Both the position numbers and the translations under genes were made by a program. A stretch of DNA of 64,000 nucleotides from Phycisphaerales bacterium (GTDB taxonomy: Bacteria > Planctomycetota > Phycisphaerae > Phycisphaerales > UBA1924). A model generated the notes under the pieces. It did not search any database and was not told the origin of the DNA. It worked only from the letters and a program-made list of their open reading frames with translations. The stretch is taken from assembly GCA_017640485.1 (NCBI GenBank), contig JAEPQP010000002.1:2036-66035 (forward strand), written 5' to 3'. Shown here one piece after another: positions 25,360 through 64,000 of the stretch (its first letter is position 1; each line of letters begins with the position of its first letter).

Positions 25360-25431
25360 TCATCATACTTCTTCGTAATCTGCAACACCAGATTTCACCC
25401 TCTTTTCACACGCAAACCCCTACAATACAAC

Positions 25432-26787: not shown

Positions 26788-27333
26788 TTGTTCCACGTGG
26801 AACATCCGCGCGACCATTCTGACCAATCCAAAACCCAGGACCTCGCCTCCGAGATCTCGCGAGCCGGATTTTTCATCGCAGGCATTGTCCTCATCGTCGC
26901 CGCCGCGATCCTCCCGCTCCGCGCCGATCTCGAATGGACCACCCACCAGCGCAACCTCGCGCTGGTTCAGGAACAAGAAAACGCCGCACGAAACGCGTCG
27001 TACCAGCAGATGATCGACGCGATCGATCAGCAAAATCCCGACACGCTCCGATTGCTCGCCCAGTCCAACCTCGGCGTGATCCCCGCCGATCACAACGCGC
27101 TGGTCGCGCCAGGCGCGAAGCCCGACCCGATGGTGTTCGAGCTTCTGGAACCGACGCCGTTGGATCGTCCGGAGTTCGCGCCGCGTTACTCTCGGCTTGA
27201 GCGTTTGGTCATGGTCCCCGAAACCAGGTTGTGGGTCATCGCGGGTGGGATGCTGCTGGTGTTGCTGGGATTGCTGCCGCAAGCGAAGCCGTCGCCGCGT
27301 GCCCAGACCCGCCGGGTCGTCCACGCCGGCTAG
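26788..27333 (+). CDS. hypothetical two-TM protein (weakly supported; overlaps parS and the strand-bias switch)
   Basis: TTG or GTG start inside parS. The translation has two hydrophobic helices and a polar middle, so it looks protein-like, but there is no family match. Codon third positions change from C-ending to G-ending midway. Confidence 0.4.
   Translation: MFHVEHPRDHSDQSKTQDLASEISRAGFFIAGIVLIVAAAILPLRADLEWTTHQRNLALVQEQENAARNASYQQMIDAIDQQNPDTLRLLAQSNLGVIPADHNALVAPGAKPDPMVFELLEPTPLDRPEFAPRYSRLERLVMVPETRLWVIAGGMLLVLLGLLPQAKPSPRAQTRRVVHAG
26789..26804. promoter_or_regulatory. parS (ParB-binding centromere-like site), perfect palindrome TGTTCCACGTGGAACA
   Basis: This exact 16-mer differs from the widely used consensus TGTTNCACGTGAAACA only by the symmetric A-to-G change that makes it a perfect palindrome. 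Only one copy was noticed in the window. Confidence 0.7.
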
Positions 27334-27341
27334 AGTGTGCG

Positions 27342-28307
27342 ATGCCATCTGCGCGATCAGTTCAGAACTATCCTGTGATTGTCGGCCCGACCGCCGGGGG
27401 GAAGACGGCGTTGTCGATCGCGCTGTGCCGAGAATACGAACGCCGAGGACTCCCAGCGGGACACGCCGTCGCGGCAGATGCGTACCAAATCTATCGAGGC
27501 ATGGACATCGGGACCGCGAAACCGACGGCCGAGGAACGCACGCAAGCCGAGCATCATCTGATTGATCTGGTTGATCCGAGTGAGCGATTCACAGTCGCGG
27601 ATTGGCTTGAGCATGCCGAGGGGGTGACGGATCGATTGATCGAGGATGGCATCCATCCGGTCGTCGTCGGCGGGACAAACCTCTATATCCAAACCTTTCT
27701 CGACGGCATGTTCCACGCGCCGGAGCCGAGCGATGAAGTCATGGCGCAGGTCGAAGCCATGGAACAAGCTGAGCGCCGCGCGAAGTTGCTGGAGGTTGAT
27801 CCAGAGGCGCACGAGCGGATCGATTCCAATGATCTGCGTCGGACCCGGCGAGCGCTCGCGGTGTATCTCCAGACCGGGACGCCGATCACCGAGCTGCAGC
27901 GCCAGTGGGATCAGGAGGATCATGCGCGCGAGGACGCGATGCTGATCGGATTGCACTGGCCGAGCGAAGAGATCAATCCGAGGATCAACGCGCGCGTCAA
28001 GCACATGATCGAGCTGGGATTGGTCGAAGAAGCTCGTGGCTTGTGGGAGTCGGGGATGCTCGGCGATCAGGCGTCCCAAGCGATTGGGTACAAGCAACTC
28101 ATCGAGCACTTCGAGGGTCGGTGCTCACTCGACGATGCGATCGAGCGGATCAAGATCGACACGCGCCGATTCGCAAAGAACCAACGCACTTGGCTCAAGC
28201 GTTTCCGGGGCAGACGGCACGGTTCGATCTGGATCGACGCACCGGGTCGAGATGCGGATACCATGGCTCATGAGATTGTGGATCGGCTGATGGAACCCAG
28301 CGGCTGA
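27342..28307 (+). CDS. miaA: tRNA dimethylallyltransferase
   Basis: VIVGPTAGGKTALSIAL (P-loop), YRGMDIGTAKP, HHLIDL and VVGGTNLY. ATG 27342. Confidence 0.9.
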   Translation: MPSARSVQNYPVIVGPTAGGKTALSIALCREYERRGLPAGHAVAADAYQIYRGMDIGTAKPTAEERTQAEHHLIDLVDPSERFTVADWLEHAEGVTDRLIEDGIHPVVVGGTNLYIQTFLDGMFHAPEPSDEVMAQVEAMEQAERRAKLLEVDPEAHERIDSNDLRRTRRALAVYLQTGTPITELQRQWDQEDHAREDAMLIGLHWPSEEINPRINARVKHMIELGLVEEARGLWESGMLGDQASQAIGYKQLIEHFEGRCSLDDAIERIKIDTRRFAKNQRTWLKRFRGRRHGSIWIDAPGRDADTMAHEIVDRLMEPSG

Positions 28308-50599: not shown

Positions 50600-51098
50600 A
50601 GTCAGTTTTCTCCCACGGGGTGACCCCCATTTATTGAGACTCTCCAAACGTTCTCGGGTGTAATGTGCGCCTGTTTTGGGGGAGTGCAAGCAATTGTGCG
50701 AGAAAGACTTGGGTAATTGAGAAATTATCAGCGGAGTGTTTGGTCCCATAAGAACTCGAGCGGTGGGGAGGGGGCTGGTTGATTTGGGTGCTGTCAGGAG
50801 CGTCCGATTTTGAGCGGGTCGACTCGGCGAGCGGATTTAGGGTCTGATAATTTCGTGGAGCATGAAGAGTGAGAGGGTATAGATTTTTCTAAATACCTGA
50901 TAATACGGCAGATAAGACCCGCTGCAGTGGGTGTTTATGGGGCTGGTGTGTCGGGTTTTGGGATTCAGGTGAGCGGATGGAGCAGCCGTGGATAGGCTGT
51001 CGGATGCGGAGAAATCGGGGTGACTGGCTGCGATAGGGAGGGGTGCTTGGTAGGATGAGGCTTGGTTCGCGCAGCTGATGATCGGGATGGAGCGGTTG

Positions 51099-54000
51099 AT
51101 GTCGGAAGAGAAGAAGTCGAACTCGTTTGTTCACTTGCACTTACACTCAGAATACTCGCTTCTGGATGGTGGGAATCGGACGGATAAGCTCGTCAAGCGT
51201 GTGAAAGAGCTCGGGATGGATGCGGTCGCGATCACGGATCACGGCAACATGCACGCGGCGGTGAAGTTCTACAACATCGCGCGGAAGGAGGGGGTCAAGC
51301 CGATTCTGGGGGTGGAGGCGTATGTGGCGCCGAGGGATCGGCACGATCGGACCTATACAGGGGTCGCGGATGGTGGGTACCACTTGGTCCTGCTCGCGGA
51401 GAACAACACGGGGTGGGAGAACCTGCTGTATCTCTGTTCTGAGGCGTACATCAACGGGTTTTACTACAAGCCTCGGATGGATCGCGAGATTCTGGAGAAG
51501 CACTCGGAGGGGTTGATCGCGATCAATGGTCACCTGGGTTCTGAGATTGCGTTCCACATGGTCAAGTACGAGCAGACTCGGGACCAGTCGCACTGGGACG
51601 CGGCTCGGGATGTCGCGAAGTGGCACGCGGAGACTTTCAGGGGGACAGAGAACGGGCCTGGGTTTTATCTGGAGTTGCAGCACCACATCGGTCTGCAGAA
51701 CTCGATCAATCCGCATGTGATCAAGCTGGCGCGGGAGATGGATCTGCCTTTGGTGTGTGACAATGACTCGCACTTCCTGATGGAAGAGGATCACGATGCG
51801 CACGATACGCTGATTTGTATTTCGACTGGGAAGGTCAAGAACGATCCGGAGCGGATGCGGTATCCGACTGAGTTGTATGTGAAGTCTCCAGAGGAGATGC
51901 GCTCGCTGTTTGAATCCGACGAGTACAACAACGAGGAGTTCGGGGACGCGGGGATCGAGGCGCTGGACAATACGGTCTCGATCGCGGATCGGTGTGATGT
52001 GGAGCTCCCGATCGGCGCGAACCACGCGCCGGTGGTGGTGGTCAAGGCGCCGGCGAAGAGCAAACTCCCCAAGCACAACGCGAAGGAGTTTGGTGGGGAT
52101 CTGACGGCGTGGTTCAAGGATTTTTGCACGAACTTCGAGCTTGAGCCTGCGAATGATCCGGATCTGGATCAGGCGTCGTTGAAGAAGGAGTGTGACAAGA
52201 CGCTGCGGTTGTTGTGTGAGGCGGGGATGGTGTGGCGGTATGGGCCGAGCATCATGGACCACTTGCATAAGGGGATCGAGGGGATCGATGAACTCCCTGA
52301 GGGGATGGACGGCGAGGACGCGGATGGGTGGCGGAAGTGGGCGCGATTGAATCGTGAGCTCAAGATCCTTGCGGATAAGTTGATCAGCGCGTACTTCTTG
52401 ATTGTGTGGGACTTTGTGAACTGGGGGCGTCAGCGCGGGATTCCGTCGCTGGCTCGTGGTTCGGGTGTGGGGACGATGACGGGGTTCGTGCTTGGGTTGT
52501 CCAATGCGTGTCCGGTGCATTACGGGTTGCTGTTTGAGCGGTTCACTGATCCGGATCGAACGGAGTATCCCGATATTGATATTGATCTGTGTCAGAACGG
52601 GCGCGGCGAGGTGATCCAGTATGTGCGCGAGAAGTACGGGCATGTGGCGCAGATCATCACCTTTGGGACGCTCAAAGCACGCGCGGCGATCCGCGATGTC
52701 GCGCGGGTGATGGAGTTCCCGCTCGGGGATGCGGACAAGCTCGCGAAGTTGATCCCGGAGGATCTGGGGATCACGCTCGAGAAGGCGCTGGAGCAGGAGC
52801 CCGATCTCAAGGATTGGTATGACCAGGACCCAACGGTCAAGCGGATCATTGATACAGGGCGGACCTTCGAGGGGCAGGCGCGGCACTCATCGGTGCACGC
52901 GGCGGGGGTGATTGTCGCGACGCGTCCGTTGCATGAGGTTGTGCCTCTGTATAAGCAATCGGGGAGTGATGATGTCATCACGCAGTGGGATGGTCCGACC
53001 TGCGAGATGATGGGTTTGCTCAAGATGGACTTCCTTGGGCTGCGGACGCTGTCGGTGATCGAGGGGGCGAAAGAGCGGATCCAAGCGACGCTTCCTGAGG
53101 AGAAGATCTGGGAAGCGGTGGGGCGCGAGAAGAAGAAGGGTGCGGATCATCCGTTGGATCTTGAGCGGTTGAAGTTCGATGACCCGCTGGTGTTTGATAT
53201 GTTCCAGCGCGGGGACACGACGGGGGTGTTCCAGTTTGAATCGGGGGGGATGCGCCGGCTGCTGACGGAGATGAAACCCGACCGGCTGGAAGATCTGATC
53301 GCGGCCAACGCGTTGTTCCGTCCGGGTCCGATGGACCTGATCCCGGATTACAACATGCGCAAGCACGGGCAGGCGGAGGTCCCCAAGGTGCACTCGATCG
53401 TGGATCATTTCACGGAAGAGACCTACGGCGTGATGATCTATCAGGAACAGGTCATGCAGATCGTGCACGAGCTGGGCGGGATTCCGCTGCGCAGCGCGTA
53501 CTCGTTGATTAAAGCGATCAGCAAGAAGAAAGAGAAGATCATCAACGCGGAGCGTCCGAAGTTCATCGAGGGCGCGGTCGAGAAGGGGCTGGATGCGAAG
53601 AAGGGTGAGGAGCTCTTTGATCTGATCCTGAAGTTTGCGGGGTATGGTTTCAATAAGTCGCACTCGACGGGGTATGCGATCGTTGCGTATCAGACGGCAT
53701 ACCTGAAGACCTATTTCCCGAATCATTACATGGCGTCGTTCCTGAGCTTTGAATCGCAGGCGCAGAAGGTCAGCGATTGGATCCCGTATCTGGATGACTG
53801 CAAGCGGACGCGGTTTATTGATCCGAAGTCTGGGGAAGTGATCCGGACAGGAGTGGAGGTCAATGCGCCGGATGTGAATCTGTCGCGGACGGACTTCAGC
53901 GTGGTCTTTGGTGAGAACGAGGAACCGAGCGCGAGCGGGGGGCAGGTGCGGTTCGGGATGCGGGCGATCAAGGGAGCGGGGACCAAGGCGATCGAGGCGA

Positions 54001-55079
54001 TCGTGAAGGAGCGGGACATCGGGGCGGATCCGGAGCAACCGGAGCGGAAACCCTTTGCGAGTCTGTTTGATTTTTGCGAGCGTGTGCCGAGTGGATCGGT
54101 GAACAAGGCGACGATCGAGGCGTTGATCCGCGCGGGGGCGTTTGATGCGGTGCATTCTCGTGAGGAGCGAGCGTCGATGATCGCGAGCATCGAGGCGGCG
54201 GTGAGCGCGGGGCAGTCGATCGCGGCGGACAAGGCGGCGGGGCAGGGCGCGTTGTTTGGGTTTGGTGGAGGGGAGGAAGTGCAAACGCAGGAGATGCCTG
54301 AGACGCCGCTGATACAGGTCGAGGGGTGGAGCGAGAGCGAGACGCTCCGTCAGGAGAAGGAGACGCTGGGGTTTTATGTGTCCAGTCATCCGATGGAGGA
54401 GTGGGACGACTGGGCGCGGGTGTTTACGCCATTGAAGGTTGGGGAGTTGAAATCGCTGCCTCAGGACAAGCGGGTGATTGTGCCTGCGATGGTGCAGGGG
54501 GTGCGGACGATCGTGACGAAGAACGGTCGGAGCGCGGGACAGAAGATGGCGATCCTGACGGTGGAGGATGCGACGGGGACAACGGACGCGGTGATGTTCT
54601 CGAATGTGTACGCGCAGTTCGGGCATCTGACGGACACGGACATGCCCAAGTTCTTCATGGGGCGGTTGGATCACTCGCGTGGTGATGCGCAAATTATCTT
54701 GGATCGTGTGGTGCCGATAGATGGGCATCCGCTGGAGCAGGGGACGATCCAGGTGATGGTGCGGAGCAGTCGAGTGAACGGGAACGCGGGTGAGGTGCTG
54801 GATCGGGTGCGCGGGATCCTGGAGACCCCTGCGGACGCGAGTGATTTGTCGATCGGGAAGAGTGCGCGTCCGGTGATGGTGATCGCGGAGATTGAAGGGG
54901 CGTGGGTGCTGATTGAGCCCGGCGGGGGGGAGGACGGCAAGAGCGTGAAGACGCATATGCGTCCGGAGTTAGTGCGATCGATCTGTCAGGAGTTGGGGGC
55001 GGACTCGGTGCGGCTGAGCGGGGGGGTGAGCGTGGAGCTCAATAAGGATGATCGGCGCAGGCAGTACGCGAAGAACTGA
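51099..55079 (+). CDS. dnaE: DNA polymerase III subunit alpha
   Basis: N-terminal PHP domain FVHLHLHSEYSLLDG, a palm/fingers region (RGSGVGT) and GYGFNKSHS with an OB-fold C-terminal region. About 1326 aa. ATG 51099 (alternative 51078). Confidence 0.95.
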   Translation: MSEEKKSNSFVHLHLHSEYSLLDGGNRTDKLVKRVKELGMDAVAITDHGNMHAAVKFYNIARKEGVKPILGVEAYVAPRDRHDRTYTGVADGGYHLVLLAENNTGWENLLYLCSEAYINGFYYKPRMDREILEKHSEGLIAINGHLGSEIAFHMVKYEQTRDQSHWDAARDVAKWHAETFRGTENGPGFYLELQHHIGLQNSINPHVIKLAREMDLPLVCDNDSHFLMEEDHDAHDTLICISTGKVKNDPERMRYPTELYVKSPEEMRSLFESDEYNNEEFGDAGIEALDNTVSIADRCDVELPIGANHAPVVVVKAPAKSKLPKHNAKEFGGDLTAWFKDFCTNFELEPANDPDLDQASLKKECDKTLRLLCEAGMVWRYGPSIMDHLHKGIEGIDELPEGMDGEDADGWRKWARLNRELKILADKLISAYFLIVWDFVNWGRQRGIPSLARGSGVGTMTGFVLGLSNACPVHYGLLFERFTDPDRTEYPDIDIDLCQNGRGEVIQYVREKYGHVAQIITFGTLKARAAIRDVARVMEFPLGDADKLAKLIPEDLGITLEKALEQEPDLKDWYDQDPTVKRIIDTGRTFEGQARHSSVHAAGVIVATRPLHEVVPLYKQSGSDDVITQWDGPTCEMMGLLKMDFLGLRTLSVIEGAKERIQATLPEEKIWEAVGREKKKGADHPLDLERLKFDDPLVFDMFQRGDTTGVFQFESGGMRRLLTEMKPDRLEDLIAANALFRPGPMDLIPDYNMRKHGQAEVPKVHSIVDHFTEETYGVMIYQEQVMQIVHELGGIPLRSAYSLIKAISKKKEKIINAERPKFIEGAVEKGLDAKKGEELFDLILKFAGYGFNKSHSTGYAIVAYQTAYLKTYFPNHYMASFLSFESQAQKVSDWIPYLDDCKRTRFIDPKSGEVIRTGVEVNAPDVNLSRTDFSVVFGENEEPSASGGQVRFGMRAIKGAGTKAIEAIVKERDIGADPEQPERKPFASLFDFCERVPSGSVNKATIEALIRAGAFDAVHSREERASMIASIEAAVSAGQSIAADKAAGQGALFGFGGGEEVQTQEMPETPLIQVEGWSESETLRQEKETLGFYVSSHPMEEWDDWARVFTPLKVGELKSLPQDKRVIVPAMVQGVRTIVTKNGRSAGQKMAILTVEDATGTTDAVMFSNVYAQFGHLTDTDMPKFFMGRLDHSRGDAQIILDRVVPIDGHPLEQGTIQVMVRSSRVNGNAGEVLDRVRGILETPADASDLSIGKSARPVMVIAEIEGAWVLIEPGGGEDGKSVKTHMRPELVRSICQELGADSVRLSGGVSVELNKDDRRRQYAKN

Positions 55080-55090: not shown

Positions 55091-55762
55091 TCATCCTTCC
55101 CAGCGGGTTTTGAGATCGTGGGGGATCTTCAGTAGGTCGAGGGCTTTGCCTACGGTGAAATCGACGAGGTCGTCGATTGATTGGGGGAGCAGGTACAGGC
55201 CGGGGTTGCAGGGTGCGATGGTGGCGCCTGCGAGGGTGAGTGTGCGCATGTTCTCGATGTCGATAAGATTCAGCGGGGACTCGCGATGGCAGATGATCAG
55301 GGGGTGGCGTTCTTTGAGGGTGACGGCGGCGGCGCGGCTCAGGAGGTTGGATCCTGATCCGGTTGCGATCGCGCCGAGGGAAGTCGATGAGCAGGGGAGG
55401 ACGACCATGCCGTTGTGGAGGAATGAGCCTGAGGCGATGGAGGCGCCGACATCTTTGTTGGGGTGCATGATGAGGCGGGAGTCGTAGAAGTCGCTGTGTT
55501 GATCAGCGGCGAGGTGGGGGGCGAGGGTCTGGAGGTTGAACTTGGTGATGTTCATTTCATCGGCGAGCAGGCGCTTGCCGTAGGTGGAGATGACGAGGTG
55601 GACCTCGTGTCCTTTGGTGAGGAGTTGGTCGAGGAGTCGGGTGGCGTAGACGGCTCCGGAGGCGCCGGTGATCGCGAGGATGTAGCGGTTTTGGGAGGGT
55701 TCTGGGGGAGATGCGGGCGGGGTGGTCTGCCTTGATGTCATGTAGGGTTTGGTGTTGGGCAT
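55091..55762 (-). CDS. ubiX: flavin prenyltransferase UbiX
   Basis: ILAITGASGAVYATRLL, VVLPCSSTSLGAIATG and PLIICHRESPL match the UbiX/Pad1 flavoprotein pattern. Confidence 0.85.
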   Translation of the reverse strand: MPNTKPYMTSRQTTPPASPPEPSQNRYILAITGASGAVYATRLLDQLLTKGHEVHLVISTYGKRLLADEMNITKFNLQTLAPHLAADQHSDFYDSRLIMHPNKDVGASIASGSFLHNGMVVLPCSSTSLGAIATGSGSNLLSRAAAVTLKERHPLIICHRESPLNLIDIENMRTLTLAGATIAPCNPGLYLLPQSIDDLVDFTVGKALDLLKIPHDLKTRWEG

Positions 55763-56595: not shown

Positions 56596-57504
56596 ATGTG
56601 GACTGGTCGGAGCTTGCTGACGATGGATGGGGTCGATTCGGGCGCGGCGCGGTCGCTGCTGGATGCGGCGCATCGTGAATCGTGGCGCGGCGACGAGTTG
56701 GCGGGGAAGGTGGTTGCGAATCTGTTCTTCGAGGATTCCACGCGGACGCGGGTGAGTTTCTCGATGGCGGCGCAGACGCTCGGCGCGAAGGTGGTGGATC
56801 TGACGAGCAAGGGATCAAGCGTTGCGAAGGGGGAGACGCTATTGGATACGGCGTGGACGATCGAGGCGATGGGCGTTGATGCGATCGTGGTGCGGTCGGG
56901 AGATTCGGGGGTGGCGGAACTGATCGATGAACACACACAGTGCGCGGTGCTCAACGCGGGTGATGGGACGCATCAGCATCCGACGCAGGCGCTCACGGAT
57001 GCGTTGACGATCGGGCGGTCGCTGGGACTGAGCGATGGGTGGGACTTCGGTGGGCTGCGTGTTGCGATCGTTGGGGATGTGGTTTCCTCGCGCGTGGCGC
57101 GGAGCAATGTTGGTTTGCTGACGGGGCTGGGTGCGGAGGTGGTGCTTGTTGGTCCGCCGGGGATGGCGCCGAGCTCGCTTGAGTCGATGGGTTGCAGGGT
57201 GACGAGCGACTTTGATTCGGTGCTTGGAGAGTGCGACGCGGTGATGATGCTGCGGATTCAGTTTGAGCGCGGCGGGGGCGCGACGCTCGCATCAACGCGG
57301 GAGTACCACGCGCGGTTCGGGATGAACGAGGGGCGGCTTGAGCGGATGAAGGATCGCGCGATTGTGATGCATCCGGGTCCGATGAACCGGGGTGTGGAGA
57401 TCAGTGCGTCGGTTGCTGATGGGGAGCGGTCGGTCGTGCTCGAACAGGTGCGTGGCGGGGTGCTCGTCCGTCAGGCGGCGATGGCGCACGCGATCGGTCA
57501 CTGA
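56596..57504 (+). CDS. pyrB: aspartate carbamoyltransferase catalytic subunit
   Basis: FFEDSTRTRVSF (carbamoyl-phosphate site), HQHPTQAL and HPGPMNRGVEI. Confidence 0.9.
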   Translation: MWTGRSLLTMDGVDSGAARSLLDAAHRESWRGDELAGKVVANLFFEDSTRTRVSFSMAAQTLGAKVVDLTSKGSSVAKGETLLDTAWTIEAMGVDAIVVRSGDSGVAELIDEHTQCAVLNAGDGTHQHPTQALTDALTIGRSLGLSDGWDFGGLRVAIVGDVVSSRVARSNVGLLTGLGAEVVLVGPPGMAPSSLESMGCRVTSDFDSVLGECDAVMMLRIQFERGGGATLASTREYHARFGMNEGRLERMKDRAIVMHPGPMNRGVEISASVADGERSVVLEQVRGGVLVRQAAMAHAIGH

Positions 57505-57990: not shown

Positions 57991-58063
<73 letters not shown>

Positions 58064-58073
58064 CTTACAGAAA

Positions 58074-58105
58074 ACGCCGCTGGTTTGATGCCAGTGGCGT
58101 TTTTT
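58074..58105 (+). terminator. rho-independent terminator after tRNA-Ala
   Basis: ACGCCGCTGG-tttgatg-CCAGTGGCGT is a 10-bp stem with one G-U pair, followed by TTTTTT. Confidence 0.75.
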
Positions 58106-58135: not shown

Positions 58136-58167
58136 TTGACCCGCTGTGACCCGTTTGTTGACCCGCT
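58136..58167. repeat. three phased direct repeats of TGACCCG (TTGACCCGCT / GTGACCCGTT / TTGACCCGCT)
   Basis: TGACCCG starts at 58137, 58147 and 58159. The outer 10-mers are identical and lie 22 bp apart. Confidence 0.5.
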
Positions 58168-58275
58168 AGGTCGGCGGGGCAGTCATCATCGGATTGGGTT
58201 TGGGAATCAATCTTGAGTCGTGTATCATCTAACTAGGGAGTGGACAGTGAGATCCATTTCTCAGTAGGGACAATT

Positions 58276-61200
58276 ATGACTGAAGAGAATGATTCATCGG
58301 GCCATCCAAAGCTAAAGATTGAAGCAGTAACCAAAACGACATTTGCGGCGGCTCAGAATGCAGTCCCTATTCTGCGACAGATAGTTGTATCCAACGAATG
58401 TGACCAGCCATTTAGCAAGCTTCGATTGACAATGCAGCCTCAGCCTGCGTTCTGTAAAGCCAAAGAGTGGGCTATTGATCGTTTACCGGCGTTGGATGAG
58501 ATCCAGATCAGTGATCTTCAGGTTACGCTCGATTTCAGTGTGCTTGATCGACTCAATGAGGCCGAGCATGGGCAGTTGGCGTTTCGATTGTTTGACGGAG
58601 AAGAGCTGCTCGATGACCAAATAGTTCCAATTGAGTTGCTCGCTCGGGATGAATGGGGCGGCTCGACAGAGATGTCTCAAATCTTGGCAGCATTTGTTTC
58701 GCCGAATCATCCTCAAACATCTCAGATACTCAAAGAAGCATCAAGAATTCTTGAGAAGAGTGGTCACAATGGAGCATTGGATGGATACCAGTCCCGTGAT
58801 CCTCGCAGGGCTTATATGCTTGCAGCAGCTATTTGGTCTGCAATCAGTGGGATGGGACTCTCGTATGCGCAGCCTCCCCGGTCATTCGAGAAACAAGGGC
58901 AGAAGATCCGTGATCCGGGCAGCATTGCTGAGACAGGATTGGCGACATGTCTTGACACAACACTGCTGCTCTCAGCAGCATTTGAAGCTGTAAAGCTCAA
59001 CCCAGTTGTGATTTTTACGAATGGTCATGCATTCGTAGGCGTTTGGCTTGTTGATAAAACATTCCCAATGACGGTTGAGACCGATGTCACGGAAGTCCGC
59101 AAGGCTGTGGCCTCCAAGGAGTTCATGGTTTTAGAGTCTACATTGCTTACTCATCGTCCTGTCGTTGGCTTTGAGCAGGCAAGGGAGAATGGGAAGAGCC
59201 AACTAGCCGAGGACCGTGAACATGAGTTTCATATGGCTGTTGATATTGCACGGGCTCGTGCAGCGGGTATCCGTCCGATTTCGAATCTGCAATCTGGCAT
59301 AGTTTCGTCATCAGACGTAGACGACACGGTAGCACCGGCGTCATTGCCGAAGTTTCCGGGATTCGACATGATTCCGGCTGAGTATGTTGAAGAGTTGACA
59401 GCTTCGCCTTCTGACCGGTTAGAGAGATGGCAGAAAAAGCTCCTCGACTTGTCGCTGCGTAATCGCTTGCTCAATTTTTCTGATACTCGCCAGACTCTTG
59501 GATTCGTTTGTGCTGATGTTCCATCCCTTGAAGATGCGCTTGCGGATGGGAAGAAGTTTCGGGTGATTTCTCTGAAAGATGAGAATCCGATTGGAAATCG
59601 TGACCCAAAATTGTACAAGCAACAGACCGGGCGTGATATACAGCATGATTTTTCGGCAACTGCGTTCACGAAGGGACAAGTTTGTGCAGTTGAATCTGGT
59701 AAGGAGATGCAGTCTCGGTTGACTACGCTCTATCGGAAAGCCAAGAGCGATTTGGCAGAGGGCGGAACAAATACACTGTTTATGGCTGTTGGTTTTTTGA
59801 GGTGGAAGAAGGACATCAAGGATGCCAGGTCTTACAAAGCTCCATTGCTGCTGTTGCCTATCAAGCTCACGAGGCGATCGGCGAAATCCAGTTACTACAT
59901 TTCACATCATGAAGATGATGTCGTATTCAATCAAACACTTCTTGAGTATCTTGAACAAGAGTTTGGATTATCGATTCCCGCTCTGAGAGGGGATCTTCCT
60001 GAAGACCATTCAGGTCTTGATATTAAACTGATTTTCGAGATCATGAAACAGGCCGTTCGTGAAGTGCCAGGCTTTGAGGTCGTTGAAGACATTGCCGTTT
60101 CGACGTTCTCGTTCTCGAAGTATCTGATGTGGAAAGATTTGGTTGATCGAACGGATAGTCTGAAAAACAATCGACTGGTCAGGCATTTACTTGATAATCC
60201 AACCGAGCGTTTCGCCGATGATGGCGGGGACTTTCCACAGCCTGAGAGCATCGATCAACGAATTAGTCCGGCAAATATCTTTACTCCCCTGCCTGCTGAT
60301 AGCTCGCAACTCGCTGCGGTCGTTGCTGCGGAATCAGGGAAGGATTTTGTTATCATCGGGCCGCCGGGTACGGGGAAAAGTCAGACGATTGCCAACATGA
60401 TTGCGCACTGTTTGGCTCATGGGAAGACTGTACTCTTTGTTGCGGAGAAATCTGCGGCGCTTGATGTCGTGTACAGGCGTCTCAAGGCATATGGGCTTGC
60501 GGATGCGTGTCTGGAGCTTCATTCAAATAAGACCGATCGGAAGTCAGTGATTGCGCAGTTGGGTGCGGCTTGGGACCGTTCGTCTCGGGATACTGAAGAC
60601 GAGTGGATCCGGTTGACTGAAACACTGAAAGTACAACGGGACGAGCTCAACCTCTATGTAAACGAACTCCACCAGCCGGGAAGCCACGGATACAGCGTGT
60701 ATGAGGGGATCGGTTTCCTGGTCGGAAACAAACCCAAGTTTGAGCTTTCGTTTGCTGGGGTTGAATCGCACGACCAGGAGAGCTTTCAGTCACTAGTAGA
60801 AGTGACAGAGCGGCTGGCACTGACTCACTCTGCGGTTGCAGATTGCCAATCGTTAAGCGGGATCGAGAAAACAGAATGGTCATTTGAATGGCAGCGGGAG
60901 CTTCTCAAGTCTTCCGAGCAGTTTCACAATGAAACGCTTGGATTGGTATCTGCGTGCAATCGGCTTGAGGAACATTTGGGACTTGTGGAGAAAGTGGACT
61001 ACTCAAATTCTGAACTCTCGGCTTATCTCAACCTTGCAAAAGCTATCGGGTCCGTGGCGGCAGGTGACTACCGGTTTGTGTTGAGTAGTGATGTGGAGTC
61101 TATCTCTGATTCAATTGATGAGCTTGAACAACATGTTCTTTCTTATTCAGAGAACAGCGGTTTGTTAGAGGCCAGCTTCGAGGATCAGGAGATTCTCCGT

Positions 61201-64000
61201 ATACCCATCGATGAGATTGACCGAGATTGGAGAAAGGAGTCTGCTAAGCTCTGGCCGTTCTCTGCGCTCGGGAAGCGAAAGATTCAGAAACTGCTCCAGA
61301 GCTATGCATCCAGCGGTGTCACAAATCCAGAAGCCGATGTATCGAGACTAATCAAGATTAAGAGTGCCTTGGAATCTGTGGCGACAAGCCCAAGCAGTTC
61401 TCTACCTTGCTTTGATGGTGTGCGTTCTGATTTGGCACAGGTTCGGTTGTGTGTTGAAAATGCGGTAAGCTTGAAGAAAGCTGTTGCGGAACTTACTCGG
61501 ATTGGTGCTGATAAAGCAAAGCTGGAAGAATCTTTGGGAGATGTGTTGACCTTGGATAGTAAGTCATCTCCTGTCGGAGAGGCGGCCCAAGGGCTGCGAG
61601 AAGCAAGACGCCGATTTGATCAGGCAGGCAAGATATACCTAGGGATGACAGGTGGTAAGCTCTCGGGTTCTTCGATGCGAGGTCTTGTCGACGAGTTGTC
61701 CGAAGTGCAGCGGCAATCCAACAGACTCAACGATTGGGTAAAGTGGACAAGTATCCGGAAAGAAGCCTCGGCTCGGGGGCTCAATCCGGTTGTCGAAGCA
61801 TTGACAGCTGGTTTGATAGATGATCCAAAGACCGATTTCATGGTTGCCTACTTTGATTGGTGGTTGCCGTTGTCGATTGACTTGAAGCCAAAGCTTCGTA
61901 GTTTTGCTCATTGGGAACAAGAAAACCATATTGAAAAGTTCAGGGAGTTGATTGAATCAGTCCAAAGTCTTGCTACACTTCAGGTTCGGCGTGCGGTGTC
62001 TCATGGGCTACCGTCACGTGATGATGTTCCTCGTAAATCAGAGCTAGGCTTGCTTCGGCATCAACTAGGACTCCAGCGACCCAGCCAATCTATTCGTGGG
62101 CTTATTGAAGGTATGCCAGAGTCGTTTACCAAGCTGACGCCATGTGTGTTGATGTCGCCACTCTCTGTCGCACAATATCTACCTGCGGAGCAGGCGTCAT
62201 TTGATATGGTGATTTTTGATGAAGCGTCTCAGATAACAACATGGGATGCGGTTGGTGCAATTGCTCGTGGTAGGCAATCGATTATTGTCGGTGATCCGAA
62301 GCAGCTACCGCCTACAAACTTCTTTGGGCGGACAAATGACGAAGAAGATGAAGAACTCGCCTTGCATGAGCGCGATCTCGCAAGTATTTTGGATGAAGCG
62401 TCAGCCGCAGGTTTACCGCTACATCAACTCAACTGGCACTATCGAAGCCGAGACGAGGGGCTGATTGCGTTCTCAAATCACCACTACTACGGCCATAGGC
62501 TTGTGACTTTCCCATCCCCCAAGACCGAATCTGATGCGGTTCAGTTCCACAGAGTAGATGGTGTATATGCCCGCGGATCTGGTAGGACGAATGAAATAGA
62601 AGCAAAGGCGATTGTTGAATACATGATTGCTCGGCTCAATGATTGGGTACAACTACCAGAGGAACATCGGCTCTCAATCGGTGTTATTACCTTTAATGCT
62701 CCTCAGCAAGAACTGATTCTTGATCTTTTAGATCTTGAGCGCTCAAATCATCCCGAGTTGGAGTGGTTCTTCTCTGAAGAGAGAGAAGAGCCTGTGATTG
62801 TGAAGAATCTTGAGAATATACAAGGCGATGAACGAGACGTGATGCTGTTCTCGATTACATTTGGGCGTGATAGTGCCGGCAAGTTACCGATGGATTTCGG
62901 AGCAGTTAATCGACTGGGCGGCGAAAAACGACTCAATGTTGCCGTTACACGAGCCAAGTCAGAGTTCCATGTTTTTTCATCCATATCCGCAGAAGACATC
63001 GATACCAGGCGGGCAAAAGGGCTTGGGGTGCAGCATCTCAAAAACTATCTTGATTTCGCTGAACGAGGTGCGATTGCATTACCAGCAATGGATGAAGGGT
63101 CTCTTGGGCCGGCAGAGAATCCGTTTGAGGAATCAGTAGCAGAAGCGCTTCGTTCTAGAGGATGGGAAGTGCGTACACAGATTGGAGTTTCTGGTTATAG
63201 GATAGATCTAGGCGTAGTACACCCAGATCATGCGGGGGCGTTCCTTGCAGGCGTCGAGTGTGATGGCGCTACTTACCATAGTTCTGCCACTGCAAGAGAT
63301 CGTGACCAAATCCGTGAAGGCGTGCTTCGACATTTAGGGTGGGAAATACTTCGTGTTTGGTCTACAGATTGGTTTATGCACTCAAAGTCCGCATTGGATC
63401 GAATCGATGAACTGTTGCATCAACTTCTGGAATCCAGCCGGGAAATTGAAAAGGAGGCGGAAGATGATGGGCAGCACGAGGCTGACAATGAAGAAGTGCC
63501 TGAGGCTAGTGAAAAACTAGACCTTGAAGAAGAGACGCTGTATGCAAGTCGGGTAACTGTTGATGAGACGCATGATTCGAGCGTGAATCAGGATCAAGAA
63601 CTCCCGGAAGATCTGTGTGTCAATGTAGAACAGTTCTTTGAGTGGAGCTATACAGAGACACTCAAGTCGATAATTAATCATGTTGTGGCAAATCAAGGGC
63701 CAATTTCGGAAAGAATGCTGTGTAGGTCTGTGGCTCGGATTCATGGGTGGCAGCGTGCGGGCAGGCGTATCCAAGAGCGTGTGAAAGCTTGTCTTGGAGA
63801 GAATGAGTGTCATGAAGAGAATGGCAACGTCTTCATTTGGGAATCAGGGACTTTTGCAGGGGTGATTCCGTTCAGGCCGCACTTAGAAAGATCTACTCGT
63901 GATATTTCTCAATCGGAGATTCTAGGGCTTATTCAAGAGCAGCCGCATGTTCAAATGGCAGATGATCCAGCAAAAGAAGTTGCCAATCTGATGGGATTAG
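58276..64000 (+). CDS. giant DUF4011-like / SF1 (Upf1-DNA2-like) helicase / Vsr-DUF559-like endonuclease / DUF3320-like protein, 3'-partial (>1908 aa); Hhe-like candidate defence gene
   Basis: Manual translation from ATG 58276; the frame is open to the window end and is not in the ORF track. Motifs: GLATCLD (Cys codon 58948-58950) and NGHAFVGVW (His codon 59026-59028); RLERWQKKLLDLSLRNRLLNF and GGTNTLFMAVGFLRW (DUF4011-like, about 59410-60140); Walker A GPPGTGKSQT 60358-60381; VIFDEASQ (DEAS 62218-62229); VGDPKQLPP; NWHYRSR; LNVAVTRAK 62932-62958; GYRIDLGV...ECDGATYH...GWEILRVWSTDW (about 63125-63375); tail from about 63600. Confidence 0.85.
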   Translation, partial: MTEENDSSGHPKLKIEAVTKTTFAAAQNAVPILRQIVVSNECDQPFSKLRLTMQPQPAFCKAKEWAIDRLPALDEIQISDLQVTLDFSVLDRLNEAEHGQLAFRLFDGEELLDDQIVPIELLARDEWGGSTEMSQILAAFVSPNHPQTSQILKEASRILEKSGHNGALDGYQSRDPRRAYMLAAAIWSAISGMGLSYAQPPRSFEKQGQKIRDPGSIAETGLATCLDTTLLLSAAFEAVKLNPVVIFTNGHAFVGVWLVDKTFPMTVETDVTEVRKAVASKEFMVLESTLLTHRPVVGFEQARENGKSQLAEDREHEFHMAVDIARARAAGIRPISNLQSGIVSSSDVDDTVAPASLPKFPGFDMIPAEYVEELTASPSDRLERWQKKLLDLSLRNRLLNFSDTRQTLGFVCADVPSLEDALADGKKFRVISLKDENPIGNRDPKLYKQQTGRDIQHDFSATAFTKGQVCAVESGKEMQSRLTTLYRKAKSDLAEGGTNTLFMAVGFLRWKKDIKDARSYKAPLLLLPIKLTRRSAKSSYYISHHEDDVVFNQTLLEYLEQEFGLSIPALRGDLPEDHSGLDIKLIFEIMKQAVREVPGFEVVEDIAVSTFSFSKYLMWKDLVDRTDSLKNNRLVRHLLDNPTERFADDGGDFPQPESIDQRISPANIFTPLPADSSQLAAVVAAESGKDFVIIGPPGTGKSQTIANMIAHCLAHGKTVLFVAEKSAALDVVYRRLKAYGLADACLELHSNKTDRKSVIAQLGAAWDRSSRDTEDEWIRLTETLKVQRDELNLYVNELHQPGSHGYSVYEGIGFLVGNKPKFELSFAGVESHDQESFQSLVEVTERLALTHSAVADCQSLSGIEKTEWSFEWQRELLKSSEQFHNETLGLVSACNRLEEHLGLVEKVDYSNSELSAYLNLAKAIGSVAAGDYRFVLSSDVESISDSIDELEQHVLSYSENSGLLEASFEDQEILRIPIDEIDRDWRKESAKLWPFSALGKRKIQKLLQSYASSGVTNPEADVSRLIKIKSALESVATSPSSSLPCFDGVRSDLAQVRLCVENAVSLKKAVAELTRIGADKAKLEESLGDVLTLDSKSSPVGEAAQGLREARRRFDQAGKIYLGMTGGKLSGSSMRGLVDELSEVQRQSNRLNDWVKWTSIRKEASARGLNPVVEALTAGLIDDPKTDFMVAYFDWWLPLSIDLKPKLRSFAHWEQENHIEKFRELIESVQSLATLQVRRAVSHGLPSRDDVPRKSELGLLRHQLGLQRPSQSIRGLIEGMPESFTKLTPCVLMSPLSVAQYLPAEQASFDMVIFDEASQITTWDAVGAIARGRQSIIVGDPKQLPPTNFFGRTNDEEDEELALHERDLASILDEASAAGLPLHQLNWHYRSRDEGLIAFSNHHYYGHRLVTFPSPKTESDAVQFHRVDGVYARGSGRTNEIEAKAIVEYMIARLNDWVQLPEEHRLSIGVITFNAPQQELILDLLDLERSNHPELEWFFSEEREEPVIVKNLENIQGDERDVMLFSITFGRDSAGKLPMDFGAVNRLGGEKRLNVAVTRAKSEFHVFSSISAEDIDTRRAKGLGVQHLKNYLDFAERGAIALPAMDEGSLGPAENPFEESVAEALRSRGWEVRTQIGVSGYRIDLGVVHPDHAGAFLAGVECDGATYHSSATARDRDQIREGVLRHLGWEILRVWSTDWFMHSKSALDRIDELLHQLLESSREIEKEAEDDGQHEADNEEVPEASEKLDLEEETLYASRVTVDETHDSSVNQDQELPEDLCVNVEQFFEWSYTETLKSIINHVVANQGPISERMLCRSVARIHGWQRAGRRIQERVKACLGENECHEENGNVFIWESGTFAGVIPFRPHLERSTRDISQSEILGLIQEQPHVQMADDPAKEVANLMGL

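What the first reader, a model, noticed from the sequence alone, without database searches (positions are those of the whole stretch)
58276..64000. Giant multi-domain helicase-nuclease (Hhe-like) with an extra transglutaminase-like N-terminal module: candidate single-gene defence system
The hand translation gives a continuous ORF of more than 1908 aa. It begins with an N-terminal region of about 330 aa. That region contains a Cys...His pair in a context like transglutaminase-fold cysteine peptidases (ETGLATCLDTTLL, then 26 residues later NGHAFVGVWLVD). A DUF4011-like segment follows. Next is an SF1 Upf1/DNA2-type helicase with Walker A at aa 695 and DEAS at aa 1315, so there is an insertion of about 620 aa between them. 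After that come a Vsr/DUF559-type PD-(D/E)xK endonuclease module and a DUF3320-like tail. As I recall, the core of DUF4011, helicase and Vsr-like endonuclease matches the single-gene Hhe system from the Gao et al. 2020 defence-island screen. The mechanism of that system is unknown. The combination with a putative peptidase or transglutaminase module, and its location as the first gene of a tRNA island in a planctomycete, may be new. The protein is cut by the window end.
Basis: partly seen in the sequence, partly recalled or inferred. Interest (0 to 1): 0.85.

Follow-up and report, generated by a model that had tools for sequence, protein, structure and literature searches.

The report
ProA-family antiphage helicase-nuclease gene
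This is a real, nearly complete giant gene for a protein that joins a protease-like domain, a DNA motor and a DNA-cutting domain; it belongs to an already catalogued anti-virus family (ProA) and was horizontally acquired next to a tRNA gene, so it is a good example of a known kind rather than a new kind.

Summary

- **Not Hhe:** the protein scores 797 bits on the Hhe equivalog, whose cutoff is 2000.
- **It is ProA:** it matches NCBIfam NF058533 "anti-phage protein ProA" end to end (2107.6 bits, cutoff 1500). Its core also matches PADLOC candidate PDC-S37.
- **The N-terminal module is part of ProA:** it is a beta-sandwich plus a transglutaminase-fold domain, and Cys225, His251 and Asp270 are conserved in 52-53 of 53 homologues.
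- **The fusion is not new:** it occurs in at least 560 genomes and 6,751 protein-cluster representatives, and was described in 2013 for MTES_1575.
- **Horizontal acquisition is well supported:**
  - GC falls from about 0.62 to 0.49 at tRNA-Ala.
  - ProA is 89.5% identical to its copy in a relative whose flanking genes are only 48-71% identical.
  - GmrSD and type I restriction genes neighbour it in close relatives.

The likely mechanism is ATP-driven translocation on foreign DNA with Vsr-type cleavage. The role of the protease-like module is unknown. Verdict: a new member of a known kind, of low to moderate interest.

The parts
57991..58064 (+). tRNA-Ala (anticodon GGC). It marks the boundary between the core genome and low-GC foreign DNA.
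   Evidence: ARAGORN. The GC drop starts here. The 3' half of this tRNA is repeated in relatives L003 and L005.
58074..58105 (+). Intrinsic terminator hairpin of the tRNA: a 10-bp stem, a 7-nt loop and a T-run.
   Evidence: Read from the sequence. The scan finds a terminator-like site here. It is conserved in all repeat copies in alignment A2.
58137..58165 (+). Three copies of TGACCCG, conserved upstream of ProA in relatives. This may be an arm-type or operator site; its function is unknown.
   Evidence: Two overlapping pattern matches against 0.02 expected, and found nowhere else in the window. Conserved in the L003 and L005 copies.
58200..58228 (+). Promoter-like site (TTGGGA, 17 nt spacer, TATCAT), a candidate for the gene's own promoter.
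   Evidence: Consensus scan. The sequence is conserved in L003 rep4 and L005. This is a consensus match only.
58276..64000 (+). ProA-family gene, codons 1-1908. About 22-30 C-terminal codons lie beyond the window end.
   Evidence: Open frame. NCBIfam NF058533 gives 2107.6 bits against a cutoff of 1500, aa 23-1907 on profile 2-1900/1903. PADLOC PDC-S37 gives 1186.7 bits. C-terminal extension of relatives.
58309..58638 (+). N-terminal beta-sandwich (Ig-like) domain, aa 12-121.
   Evidence: AlphaFold model with pLDDT 90 and pTM 0.84. Foldseek matches the beta-sandwich of transglutaminases, GH2 enzymes and UNC119.
58648..59280 (+). Transglutaminase-fold (papain-like) core, aa 125-335. The putative triad is Cys225 (58948-58950), His251 (59026-59028) and Asp270 (59083-59085).
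   Evidence: Core model with pLDDT 94 and pTM 0.92. The Foldseek hit list is almost all transglutaminase-fold proteins, but weak (E 0.01-0.4, TM 0.3-0.39). Weak Pfam hits to DUF553 and Transglut_core in 7 and 2 of 32 homologues. C225 53/53, H251 52/53, D270 53/53. Cys sits at a helix N-terminus and His at a strand start.
59437..59952 (+). DUF4011 domain, aa 388-559.
   Evidence: Pfam PF13195, E 4.5e-45, 153.9 bits against a cutoff of 22.2.
60301..60645 (+). First part of helicase RecA-like domain 1, aa 676-790, with Walker A GPPGTGKS at aa 695-702 (60358-60381).
   Evidence: Pfam AAA_11, AAA_19 and AAA_30. Walker A is invariant in 53/53.
60646..62145 (+). Insertion of about 500 aa inside RecA-like domain 1 (aa 791-1290). 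It is the least conserved enzymatic-core segment.
   Evidence: The AAA_11 profile is split: positions up to about 60 match before the insertion and positions 198-253 after it. Mean column conservation is 0.51, against 0.76-0.84 for the flanking helicase parts. The ProA, PDC-S37 and, in part, Hhe profiles also cover it.
62146..62979 (+). Rest of the SF1B (Upf1/DNA2-type) helicase core, aa 1291-1568: motif II DEAS (62218-62229), motif III GDPKQLPP, and RecA-like domain 2 (AAA_12).
   Evidence: Pfam AAA_11 72 bits and AAA_12 54.9 bits, both against a cutoff of 27. PDB sequence hits to IGHMBP2, Sen1 and DNA2. Motifs are invariant in 53/53.
63124..63411 (+). Vsr-type PD-(D/E)xK nuclease (MTES_1575 REase), aa 1617-1712, with Asp1644, Glu1661 and Asp1663.
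   Evidence: Pfam PF18741, 116.2 bits against a cutoff of 38.2. D1644, E1661 and D1663 are 53/53 and H1668 is 51/53.
63631..64000 (+). C-terminal DNA-binding tail: DUF3320 (aa 1786-1834) and following residues, truncated by the window end. The literature describes this as two winged-helix domains.
   Evidence: Pfam PF11784, E 7e-14. PMC3710099 states that the two wHTH domains overlap DUF3320. The tail is absent in 8 of 53 homologues, including the nearest relative L003.

Best explanation
The gene encodes a member of the ProA family of single-gene antiphage proteins. This family is a cousin of Hhe and of PADLOC candidate PDC-S37. The gene sits on horizontally acquired DNA directly downstream of tRNA-Ala in a Phycisphaerae-like planctomycete.

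**Shown here**
- Family membership.
- Intact and strongly conserved catalytic residues in three separate enzymatic modules: a transglutaminase-fold Cys-His-Asp domain, an SF1B Upf1/DNA2-type ATPase-helicase, and a Vsr-type nuclease.
- Foreign base composition and evidence of mobility.
- Defence-gene neighbours in close relatives.

**Inferred mechanism**
1. DUF4011, the large insertion in the helicase and the winged-helix tail engage foreign DNA or its replication intermediates.
2. The SF1B motor uses ATP to translocate 5'->3' along DNA.
3. The covalently attached Vsr-type nuclease cuts the DNA it travels on, which stops phage replication. In the cousin Hhe a nuclease point mutant loses defence.
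4. The N-terminal beta-sandwich plus transglutaminase-fold cysteine hydrolase is an active peptidase or isopeptidase-type enzyme. It would act as a sensing or licensing module, or as a second effector on a DNA-bound phage protein. This step is the least certain.

**My estimates**
- ProA-family defence gene acquired by horizontal transfer: about 0.85.
- Helicase-driven DNA cleavage as the effector: about 0.6.
- Transglutaminase-like module catalytically required: about 0.5.
For: **Family membership**
- NCBIfam NF058533 'anti-phage protein ProA' (equivalog) gives 2107.6 bits against a cutoff of 1500, covering profile 2-1900 of 1903.
- All five segments of the protein match the ProA profile.
- PADLOC PDC-S37 gives 1186.7 bits over aa 379-1882.

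**Domains and conservation**
- Pfam domains are listed.
- In 53 full-length homologues from several phyla, Walker A, DEAS, D1644/E1661/D1663 and C225/D227/D270 are 53/53, and H251 is 52/53.
- The transglutaminase core is as conserved as the helicase core (0.72 against 0.76-0.84).

**Transglutaminase fold**
- Confident models.
- Foldseek hits to TG2, TG3, BDI_1141, PNGase, PeiP/PeiW, LapG, CPR-C4 and Rad4.
- Weak Pfam hits to transglutaminase-like families.

**Horizontal transfer**
- GC is 0.487 in ProA against 0.61-0.65 in the flank. GC3 is 0.46 against 0.77-0.78.
- ProA is 89.5% identical to its L003 copy, whereas syntenic flank proteins are 48-71% identical.
- L003 carries tandem tRNA 3'-half repeats at the same tRNA.
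- 69 plasmid records carry full-length copies.
- A fragmented copy lies inside a lambdoid prophage.
- A truncated copy lies next to an integrase and tRNA-Val.

**Defence neighbourhood in close relatives**
- GmrSD is adjacent in L003, L005 and L006, and type I HsdM follows in L006.

**Single-gene system**
- No partner gene is conserved across 52 loci.

**Hhe precedent**
- Hhe is active against lambda, T3, T7 and PhiV-1, and its nuclease mutant E1731A abolishes defence (10.1101/2022.06.16.496414).
Against: - Nothing experimental exists for this protein.
- I could not find the primary ProA publication in the held library after 10 searches. The 'anti-phage' label therefore rests on the NCBIfam curators' name.
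- The structural match of the core to transglutaminase-fold proteins is distant (TM 0.3-0.39, E 0.01-0.4). No Pfam transglutaminase model reaches its threshold.
- Across phyla, many immediate neighbours are housekeeping genes.
- A DUF4011 gene is a core gene in P. aeruginosa (PMC10250203). I did not test its relation to ProA.
- The rest of the island is outside the window, so no distal repeat, integrase or further defence gene can be shown for this genome.
Confidence: 0.75

Rival explanations
1. It is an Hhe system in the strict sense (the Gao et al. 2020 single-gene helicase plus Vsr nuclease) that has picked up an extra N-terminal module.
For: The protein shares DUF4011, the split SF1 helicase and the Vsr-type nuclease with Hhe. 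PADLOC Hhe gives 562.5 bits and NCBIfam Hhe gives 797 bits.
Against: The NCBIfam Hhe equivalog cutoff is 2000 bits, so 797 fails. The ProA model scores 2107.6 and passes. The Hhe profile has no match to aa 1-380 or beyond about aa 1727. PDC-S37 scores twice as high as Hhe in PADLOC.
Confidence: 0.03
2. It is a housekeeping DNA repair or replication helicase-nuclease (DNA2-like, or like the core DUF4011 gene of P. aeruginosa) and not an immune gene.
For: It is an SF1B helicase fused to a nuclease, as in DNA2, and has PDB sequence hits to DNA2, Sen1 and IGHMBP2. The DUF4011 gene is core in P. aeruginosa (PMC10250203). Many neighbours across phyla are housekeeping genes.
Against: GC is 0.487 against a flank of about 0.62, and GC3 is 0.46 against 0.78. 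The gene is far more similar to its L003 copy than the flanks are. It sits in different contexts in closely related genomes. The distribution across phyla is patchy, and truncated or broken copies occur. It is carried on plasmids and in a prophage. There is a curated antiphage equivalog.
Confidence: 0.07
3. The N-terminal transglutaminase-fold domain is a non-catalytic scaffold or DNA- or protein-binding domain, like the inactive transglutaminase fold of Rad4/XPC. ProA would then work purely as a helicase-nuclease.
For: Foldseek lists Rad4/XPC and menin, which are non-enzymatic transglutaminase folds, among the matches. No transglutaminase Pfam model passes its threshold.
Against: Cys225, Asp227 and Asp270 are invariant in 53/53 and His251 in 52/53 homologues that share only 45-89% identity. 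They have the canonical order and spacing. Cys lies at a helix N-terminus and His at a strand start. Inactive homologues such as Rad4 have lost the triad (established knowledge of that family; not tested here).
Confidence: 0.3
4. The gene mainly serves competition between mobile elements, such as plasmid or prophage exclusion or stabilisation of its carrier element, rather than protecting the host against lytic phages.
For: Full-length copies occur on 69 plasmid records, many of them megaplasmids. One copy lies inside a lambdoid prophage. The gene lies at tRNA-linked islands.
Against: The curated family name is antiphage. The neighbours in close relatives are classical restriction genes. The two roles are not mutually exclusive.
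Confidence: 0.1

Closest known systems
ProA (NCBIfam NF058533, 'anti-phage protein ProA', equivalog)
   Same: The match runs end to end and is above the curated cutoff (2107.6 against 1500). It includes the N-terminal beta-sandwich and transglutaminase-fold module, DUF4011, the split SF1B helicase, the Vsr-type nuclease and the DUF3320 tail.
   Different: Nothing structural differs. This copy comes from a Phycisphaerae-like planctomycete, lacks its last 22-30 or so residues because of the window end, and has not been tested. I could not locate the primary publication, so I do not know what has been shown experimentally for ProA.
PADLOC phage-defence candidate PDC-S37
   Same: It matches strongly (1186.7 bits) from DUF4011 to the DUF3320 tail, aa 379-1882 on model 7-1486/1550. 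It is a single-gene system.
   Different: The PDC-S37 model starts at DUF4011, so its exemplars lack the roughly 380-aa N-terminal module present here.
Hhe (Gao et al. 2020; NCBIfam NF042953, PADLOC PDLC02194)
   Same: It has DUF4011, an SF1 helicase with a large insertion between Walker A and motif II, and a Vsr-type nuclease in one polypeptide. It is a single-gene defence, and its nuclease residue is required for defence.
   Different: The score is below the Hhe equivalog cutoff (797 against 2000). Hhe has no counterpart to aa 1-380 or to the DUF3320 tail.
MTES_1575 of Microbacterium testaceum (Anantharaman et al. 2013, PMC3710099)
   Same: [quoted passage not shown] The nuclease here hits the Pfam family named after it, PF18741.
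   Different: MTES_1575 carries an additional N-terminal HEPN RNase domain, which is not present here. A few ProA-module homologues do have 95-170 aa N-terminal extensions.
Transglutaminase-like cysteine peptidases: LapG, PeiP/PeiW, PNGase, BDI_1141, CPR-C4
   Same: They share the fold family and a Cys-His-Asp triad in the same order. The beta-sandwich-then-core arrangement is as in animal transglutaminases and BDI_1141.
   Different: The relationship is very distant (9-16% identity, TM 0.3-0.39). Here the domain is fused to a helicase-nuclease, and its substrate is unknown.
Upf1/DNA2/Sen1/IGHMBP2 SF1B helicases
   Same: Motifs I, II, III, V and VI are present, with Pfam AAA_11 and AAA_12 and direct PDB sequence hits. 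DNA2 likewise couples an SF1B motor to a PD-(D/E)xK nuclease.
   Different: There is an insertion of about 500 aa inside RecA-like domain 1. The nuclease is C-terminal and Vsr-type. The gene's context is defence or mobile DNA.

Membership tests
ProA (NCBIfam NF058533 equivalog) | Whole-protein HMM score at or above the curated cutoff of 1500 bits | tested here: met
   2107.6 bits, E = 0.
ProA (NCBIfam NF058533 equivalog) | End-to-end coverage of the 1903-position profile, including the N-terminal module (positions 2-323) | tested here: met
   aa 23-1907 match profile 2-1900. The N-terminal 380 aa alone give 373 bits on profile 2-323.
ProA (NCBIfam NF058533 equivalog) | Confers resistance to phage | not testable with these tools
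   This needs expression and phage challenge. The primary ProA paper was not found.
Hhe (NCBIfam NF042953 equivalog) | Whole-protein HMM score at or above the curated cutoff of 2000 bits | tested here: not met
   797 bits.
Hhe (NCBIfam NF042953 equivalog) | Architecture that starts with DUF4011 and ends shortly after the Vsr nuclease | tested here: not met
   The Hhe profile has no match to aa 1-380. Its matches span about aa 475 to about 1727 (profile 124 to 1711 of 1797).
Hhe (NCBIfam NF042953 equivalog) | Catalytic nuclease glutamate (E1731 in E. coli Hhe) present | tested here: inconclusive
   The nuclease region aligns to the Hhe profile and E1661 is invariant. I had no E. coli Hhe sequence with which to map E1731 residue by residue.
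PADLOC PDC-S37 (single-gene candidate) | Match to the PDC-S37 HMM over most of its length | tested here: met
   1186.7 bits, model positions 7-1486 of 1550. The tool shows no curated threshold.
PADLOC PDC-S37 (single-gene candidate) | Stands alone, with no obligatory partner gene | tested here: met
   No neighbour family recurs in more than 8 of 104 immediate neighbours across 52 loci.
Transglutaminase-like (papain-fold) cysteine hydrolases | Transglutaminase core fold | tested here: met
   The two-domain model hits TG2 (E 5e-5), BDI_1141 and TG3. The core-only model returns almost only transglutaminase-fold proteins, but weakly (E 0.01-0.4, TM 0.3-0.39).
Transglutaminase-like (papain-fold) cysteine hydrolases | Cys-His-Asp triad in that order, conserved | tested here: met
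   C225 53/53, H251 52/53, D270 53/53, with spacings of 26 and 19 residues. Cys lies at a helix N-terminus and His at a strand start. Spatial proximity could not be measured because no coordinates were accessible.
Transglutaminase-like (papain-fold) cysteine hydrolases | Pfam Transglut_core or a related model above its gathering threshold | tested here: not met
   This protein has no hit. Only sub-threshold hits occur in homologues: DUF553 in 7/32 (best E 0.0011) and Transglut_core in 2/32 (best E 0.019).
Transglutaminase-like (papain-fold) cysteine hydrolases | Peptidase, isopeptidase or transamidase activity | not testable with these tools
   This needs biochemistry.
SF1B Upf1/DNA2-type helicases | AAA_11 and AAA_12 above threshold, with motifs I, II, III, V and VI intact | tested here: met
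   72 and 54.9 bits against cutoffs of 27. Motifs are invariant in 53/53. PDB hits to IGHMBP2, Sen1 and DNA2.
Vsr-type PD-(D/E)xK nucleases (PF18741 MTES_1575) | Profile match above threshold with acidic catalytic residues present | tested here: met
   116.2 bits against a cutoff of 38.2. D1644, E1661 and D1663 are 53/53.
tRNA-linked genomic island | Starts at the 3' end of a tRNA gene with a compositional break | tested here: met
   tRNA-Ala at 57991-58064. GC falls from about 0.62-0.65 to about 0.49 there, and GC3 is 0.46 against 0.77-0.78.
tRNA-linked genomic island | Distal direct repeat of the tRNA 3' end, and an integrase | not testable with these tools
   The window ends inside the first gene. 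In relative L003 the tRNA 3' half is repeated three more times, with the last copy directly before ProA. A truncated copy in L001/L009 abuts an integrase and tRNA-Val.

The most novel reading that the evidence does not exclude
The invariant Cys-His-Asp transglutaminase-fold module may be an active peptidase or isopeptidase that is indispensable for immunity. It could recognise or cleave a phage protein, or license the nuclease by processing. ProA would then be a three-enzyme, single-chain immune protein that couples protein sensing or cleavage to helicase-driven DNA destruction. I found no description of such a mechanism in the accessible literature. It may already be covered by the ProA paper that I could not locate.
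Probability: 0.35. Interest if true: 0.55.

Novelty: new member of a known kind. Interest (0 to 1): 0.25.

Why it matters
Taken by itself, the gene adds a planctomycete member to a catalogued antiphage family, so it does not change the map of defence systems. It has two uses.

First, it gives a clean natural example of recent horizontal acquisition at a tRNA. The cassette is 89.5% identical between genomes whose flanking genes are 48-71% identical.

Second, the comparative data assembled here show that three catalytic centres are all essentially invariant across phyla: the Cys-His-Asp triad, the ATPase and the nuclease. That turns the unexplained transglutaminase-like module into a directly testable point-mutant hypothesis for the Hhe/PDC-S37/ProA superfamily. 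I found no published mechanism for this superfamily.

Tried and rejected
- **Literature.** Ten full-text searches for ProA, PDC-S37, DUF4011, DUF3320/MTES_1575, Hhe and transglutaminase plus helicase defence found no primary ProA or PDC-S37 paper. 'ProA' hits were words such as 'proactively' and 'proaerolysin'. The Druantia III preprint is unrelated.
- **Profile search of the N-terminal alignment against PDB sequences.** No hit at E <= 1, so the fold assignment had to come from structure prediction.
- **Full-length sequence against the PDB.** This returned only generic SF1B helicases, with no solved ProA or Hhe structure.
- **'tRNA adjacency is a family trait'.** Rejected. Only 4 of 54 loci have a tRNA within 1.5 kb. 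The link holds in the Phycisphaerae clade only.
- **'The N-terminal module also exists as a separate gene'.** This idea was prompted by many 350-650 aa hits on long contigs. It is mostly rejected. Their C-termini are frameshift junk or truncations. In genomes the module is fused in full-length ORFs. Representative hits are about 1,740-2,300 aa, with the module at the N-terminus.
- **A conserved partner gene.** None was found. A Metallophos plus SMC-like pair recurs only in a subset of Alphaproteobacteria.
- **Probing the 2026 E. coli RefSeq annotations** with an enterobacterial homologue's DNA gave no match.
- **BFVD fold search.** This added only a weak PeiP-type hit.
Full report
**1. The observation**

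Translating window 58276-64000 on the + strand gives 1908 codons with no stop. The frame starts at an ATG 211 bp after a tRNA-Ala(GGC) gene at 57991-58064.

| Feature | Position (aa) | Evidence |
|---|---|---|
| ETGLATCLD (Cys225) and NGHAFVGVW (His251), 26 residues apart | 225, 251 | |
| Pfam DUF4011 | 388-559 | E 4.5e-45 |
| Pfam AAA_11, split into two parts | 676-735 and 1294-1347 | |
| Walker A GPPGTGKS; DEAS | from 695; from 1315 | |
| Pfam AAA_12 | 1372-1568 | |
| Vsr-type nuclease PF18741 (MTES_1575) | 1617-1712 | E 7e-34; DUF559 only E 0.013 |
| DUF3320 | 1786-1834 | |

Full-length relatives run 22-30 residues beyond the last window residue. The ProA profile is matched to position 1900 of 1903. 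So the protein is about 1,930-1,935 aa long and only its extreme C-terminus is missing.

**2. Which family it belongs to**

NCBIfam returns an equivalog-level, end-to-end hit to NF058533, 'anti-phage protein ProA'. It scores 2107.6 bits against a curated cutoff of 1500, with aa 23-1907 on profile positions 2-1900.

The Hhe equivalog NF042953 scores only 797 bits against a cutoff of 2000. PADLOC ranks the candidate system PDC-S37 first (1186.7 bits, aa 379-1882 on model 7-1486/1550) and Hhe second (562.5 bits).

I then scanned the protein in five segments.
- The ProA profile matches every segment, including the N-terminal 380 aa (373 bits on profile 2-323).
- The Hhe profile has no match to aa 1-380.
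- The Hhe profile starts at about aa 475 (profile position 124) and stops at about aa 1727.

This gives three related families.
- **Hhe:** DUF4011, helicase, Vsr nuclease.
- **PDC-S37:** the same plus a DUF3320 tail.
- **ProA:** the same plus a roughly 380-aa N-terminal module.

**3. The N-terminal module**

Pfam finds nothing on aa 1-380, and a profile of 33 homologues finds nothing in PDB sequences. Structure prediction was needed.

- *Two-domain model.* An AlphaFold model built on that alignment is confident (pLDDT 90, pTM 0.84). It shows a beta-sandwich at aa 12-121 and an alpha/beta domain at aa 130-330.
- *Foldseek on the two-domain model.* The best PDB matches are transglutaminase 2 (E 5e-5), the transglutaminase-like putative protease BDI_1141, TG3 and fish transglutaminase. 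All of these have the same beta-sandwich-then-core order.
- *Core-only model.* This model (pLDDT 94, pTM 0.92) returns a hit list made almost entirely of transglutaminase-fold proteins: PNGase, PeiP/PeiW, BDI_1141, a bacterial TGase, Rad4/XPC, CPR-C4, a Cytophaga cysteine protease, LapG, TglA and TG2. The scores are weak (E 0.01-0.4, TM 0.30-0.39).
- *Sequence signal.* 7 of 32 homologues touch Pfam DUF553 ('transglutaminase-like', best E 0.0011) and 2 touch Transglut_core.
- *Conservation.* In 53 full-length homologues from Planctomycetota, Alpha- and Gammaproteobacteria, Nitrospirales, Acidobacteriota and others (45-89% identity), Cys225, Asp227 and Asp270 are 53/53 and His251 is 52/53.
- *Geometry.* The spacings are 26 and 19 residues. 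Cys lies at the N-terminus of a helix and His at the start of a strand. This is the canonical papain/transglutaminase arrangement.

I accept the transglutaminase-fold cysteine-hydrolase reading as a distant but consistent assignment. I could not measure the triad geometry, because model coordinates are not exposed.

**4. The fusion is not new**

- Anantharaman et al. [quoted passage not shown] The nuclease Pfam family hit here is named after that protein.
- A scan of one genome per species found at least 560 loci encoding the N-terminal module. In those loci it is nearly always fused in an ORF of about 1,950-2,050 aa. A shorter class of about 1,735-1,830 aa lacks the tail (8 of 53, including the nearest relative).
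- An exhaustive HMM search of 1.84 billion cluster representatives gives 6,751 hits at E <= 1e-3 and 2,146 at E <= 1e-30. The module sits at the N-terminus of proteins of about 1,740-2,300 aa.
- 69 plasmid records carry full-length copies. In 2024 these were annotated 'DUF3320 domain-containing protein'.

**5. Other catalytic centres**

The following are invariant in 53/53 homologues: Walker A (GPPGTGKS), motif II (DEAS), Q1343 in motif III, and the Y1389, S1391, G1517, E1519, R1520, T1558 and R1559 positions in later motifs. The nuclease residues D1644, E1661 and D1663 are also 53/53, and H1668 is 51/53.

Direct PDB sequence hits are to IGHMBP2, Sen1 and DNA2, which are SF1B helicases.

The roughly 500-aa insertion inside RecA-like domain 1 (aa 791-1290) is real. 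It is the least conserved part of the enzymatic core (0.51). It is shared with PDC-S37 and, in part, with Hhe.

**6. Genomic context**

Upstream of the tRNA lie housekeeping genes:
- dnaE at 51078-55079.
- A flavoprotein at 55091-55762 on the minus strand.
- A carbamoyltransferase at 56596-57504.

GC is 0.61-0.65 in the last 4 kb before the tRNA and falls to 0.48-0.50 throughout ProA. GC3 is 0.46 in ProA against 0.78 (dnaE) and 0.77 (carbamoyltransferase).

The closest genome locus is L003, on a 270-kb contig. It is syntenic upstream as far as tRNA-Ala. Its flanking proteins are only 48-71% identical to those of the window, yet its ProA is 89.5% identical over 1,728 aa. This means the gene arrived more recently than the two genomes diverged.

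In L003 the tRNA is followed by three more copies of a unit made of the tRNA 3' half, a terminator hairpin and TGACCCG repeats. These bound small cargo segments, and the last copy lies directly in front of ProA. In L005 the same unit precedes ProA, and its terminator-plus-TGACCCG part recurs after ProA.

| Locus | Context of the ProA homologue |
|---|---|
| L003 | ProA, then GmrSD |
| L005 | DEAD helicase-PRTase, GmrSD, ProA, IS transposase |
| L006 | ProA, GmrSD, type I HsdM |
| L004 | tRNA-Asn 240 bp downstream |
| L001/L009 | truncated ProA remnant abutting an integrase and tRNA-Val |
| L083 (Mangrovibacter) | fragmented copy inside a lambdoid prophage |

Across 52 loci from many phyla there is no conserved partner gene. 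Immediate neighbours are a mix of housekeeping, mobile and defence genes. Only 4 of 54 loci have a tRNA within 1.5 kb.

The 'first gene of a tRNA island' reading is therefore well supported for this clade, but it is not a property of the family. The rest of the island in this genome lies beyond the window.

**7. How it most likely works**

*Shown:* three intact, strongly constrained catalytic modules in one chain; membership of a curated antiphage family; horizontal mobility; restriction-gene neighbours.

*Inferred from the established behaviour of SF1B helicases (Upf1, DNA2, Sen1) and Vsr/PD-(D/E)xK nucleases, and from the published finding that Hhe loses defence when its nuclease residue E1731 is mutated (10.1101/2022.06.16.496414):*
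1. The protein loads on foreign DNA or replication intermediates through DUF4011, the helicase insertion and the winged-helix tail.
2. It translocates with ATP.
3. It cuts DNA with the attached nuclease.

*Least certain:* the transglutaminase-fold module is probably an active peptidase or isopeptidase that senses a phage factor, licenses the nuclease, or attacks a phage protein. The alternative is a non-catalytic scaffold, as in Rad4/XPC. That alternative is disfavoured by the invariant triad but is not excluded.

**8. Novelty and verdict**

The gene is a new member of a known kind. What remains open, as far as I could find, is what the module does. The mutants listed under the decisive next steps would settle that. 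Interest: 0.25.

**Limits**

I could not find the primary ProA paper, so 'antiphage' rests on the curators' naming. The transglutaminase fold match is distant. No experiment exists for this protein.

Noticed in passing
window 1-58000, switch at about 27000-27400: GC skew on the + strand is about -0.25 from 1 to 27 kb and about +0.3 from 27.4 to 58 kb. This is an unusually strong, origin-type sign change. It lies between nadA (24961-26688) and miaA (27231-28307), with no dnaA beside it. ProA itself has a lower skew (0.06-0.23), consistent with foreign DNA.
   Followed up: partly
L003 3443-10000 (closest relative, CAXBJM010000004.1): tRNA-Ala is followed by three further copies of a unit of about 130-150 bp, made of the tRNA 3' half, a terminator hairpin and TGACCCG repeats. 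These bound cargo segments of 1.4-2.4 kb that contain no integrase. The cargo is a Peptidase_S74-domain protein; a beta-lactamase-fold plus TPR protein; and DUF3891 plus an NAD-binding protein plus MarR. This looks like tandem accretion of small elements at one tRNA.
   Followed up: partly
window 58137-58165: There are three TGACCCG repeats between the tRNA terminator and the ProA promoter-like site. They occur nowhere else in the window (0.02 expected) and are conserved in the L003 and L005 copies, including downstream of ProA in L005. Their function is unknown; they may be a recombinase arm site or an operator.
   Followed up: partly
L041 15921-19663; also L042, L050, L071, L075 (downstream of ProA) and L045 (upstream): A pair of a 374-aa Metallophos protein and an SMC/AAA_27-like protein of about 874 aa (SbcCD-like) lies directly next to ProA in 6-8 alphaproteobacterial loci. 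A 1,131-1,145-aa AAA_27 protein recurs in 4 other loci. These may be an adjacent defence system or a clade-specific partner.
   Followed up: partly
L083 8001-13905 (Mangrovibacter sp. SLW1): The ProA homologue is broken into at least six ORFs. It lies inside a lambdoid prophage, between the replication genes O/P and rusA/ybcO. A CdiI/RNase_A_bac pair and a DNA methylase lie nearby. DNA of this copy has no match in 5,426 complete E. coli genomes.
   Followed up: partly
L003 10001-15196 compared with window 58276-63440: The nearest relative (89.5% identical) ends right after the nuclease domain and lacks the linker plus DUF3320 tail. So do 7 other loci out of the 53 sequences compared. The tail is therefore a gain-or-loss module even between very close copies.
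   Followed up: partly
L001/L009 6502-8748 (Phycisphaerales bacterium JB050): A 366-aa N-terminal remnant of ProA (71% identical) stops where a phage-type integrase gene begins, next to tRNA-Val. This is a decayed or interrupted copy on another tRNA-linked element.
   Followed up: partly
L007 8708-9853: A 381-aa protein with a dUTPase/dCTP-deaminase-like domain lies immediately upstream of ProA in a Phycisphaeraceae MAG. dCTP deaminases are known defence genes (my own knowledge), but I did not examine this one further.
   Followed up: no
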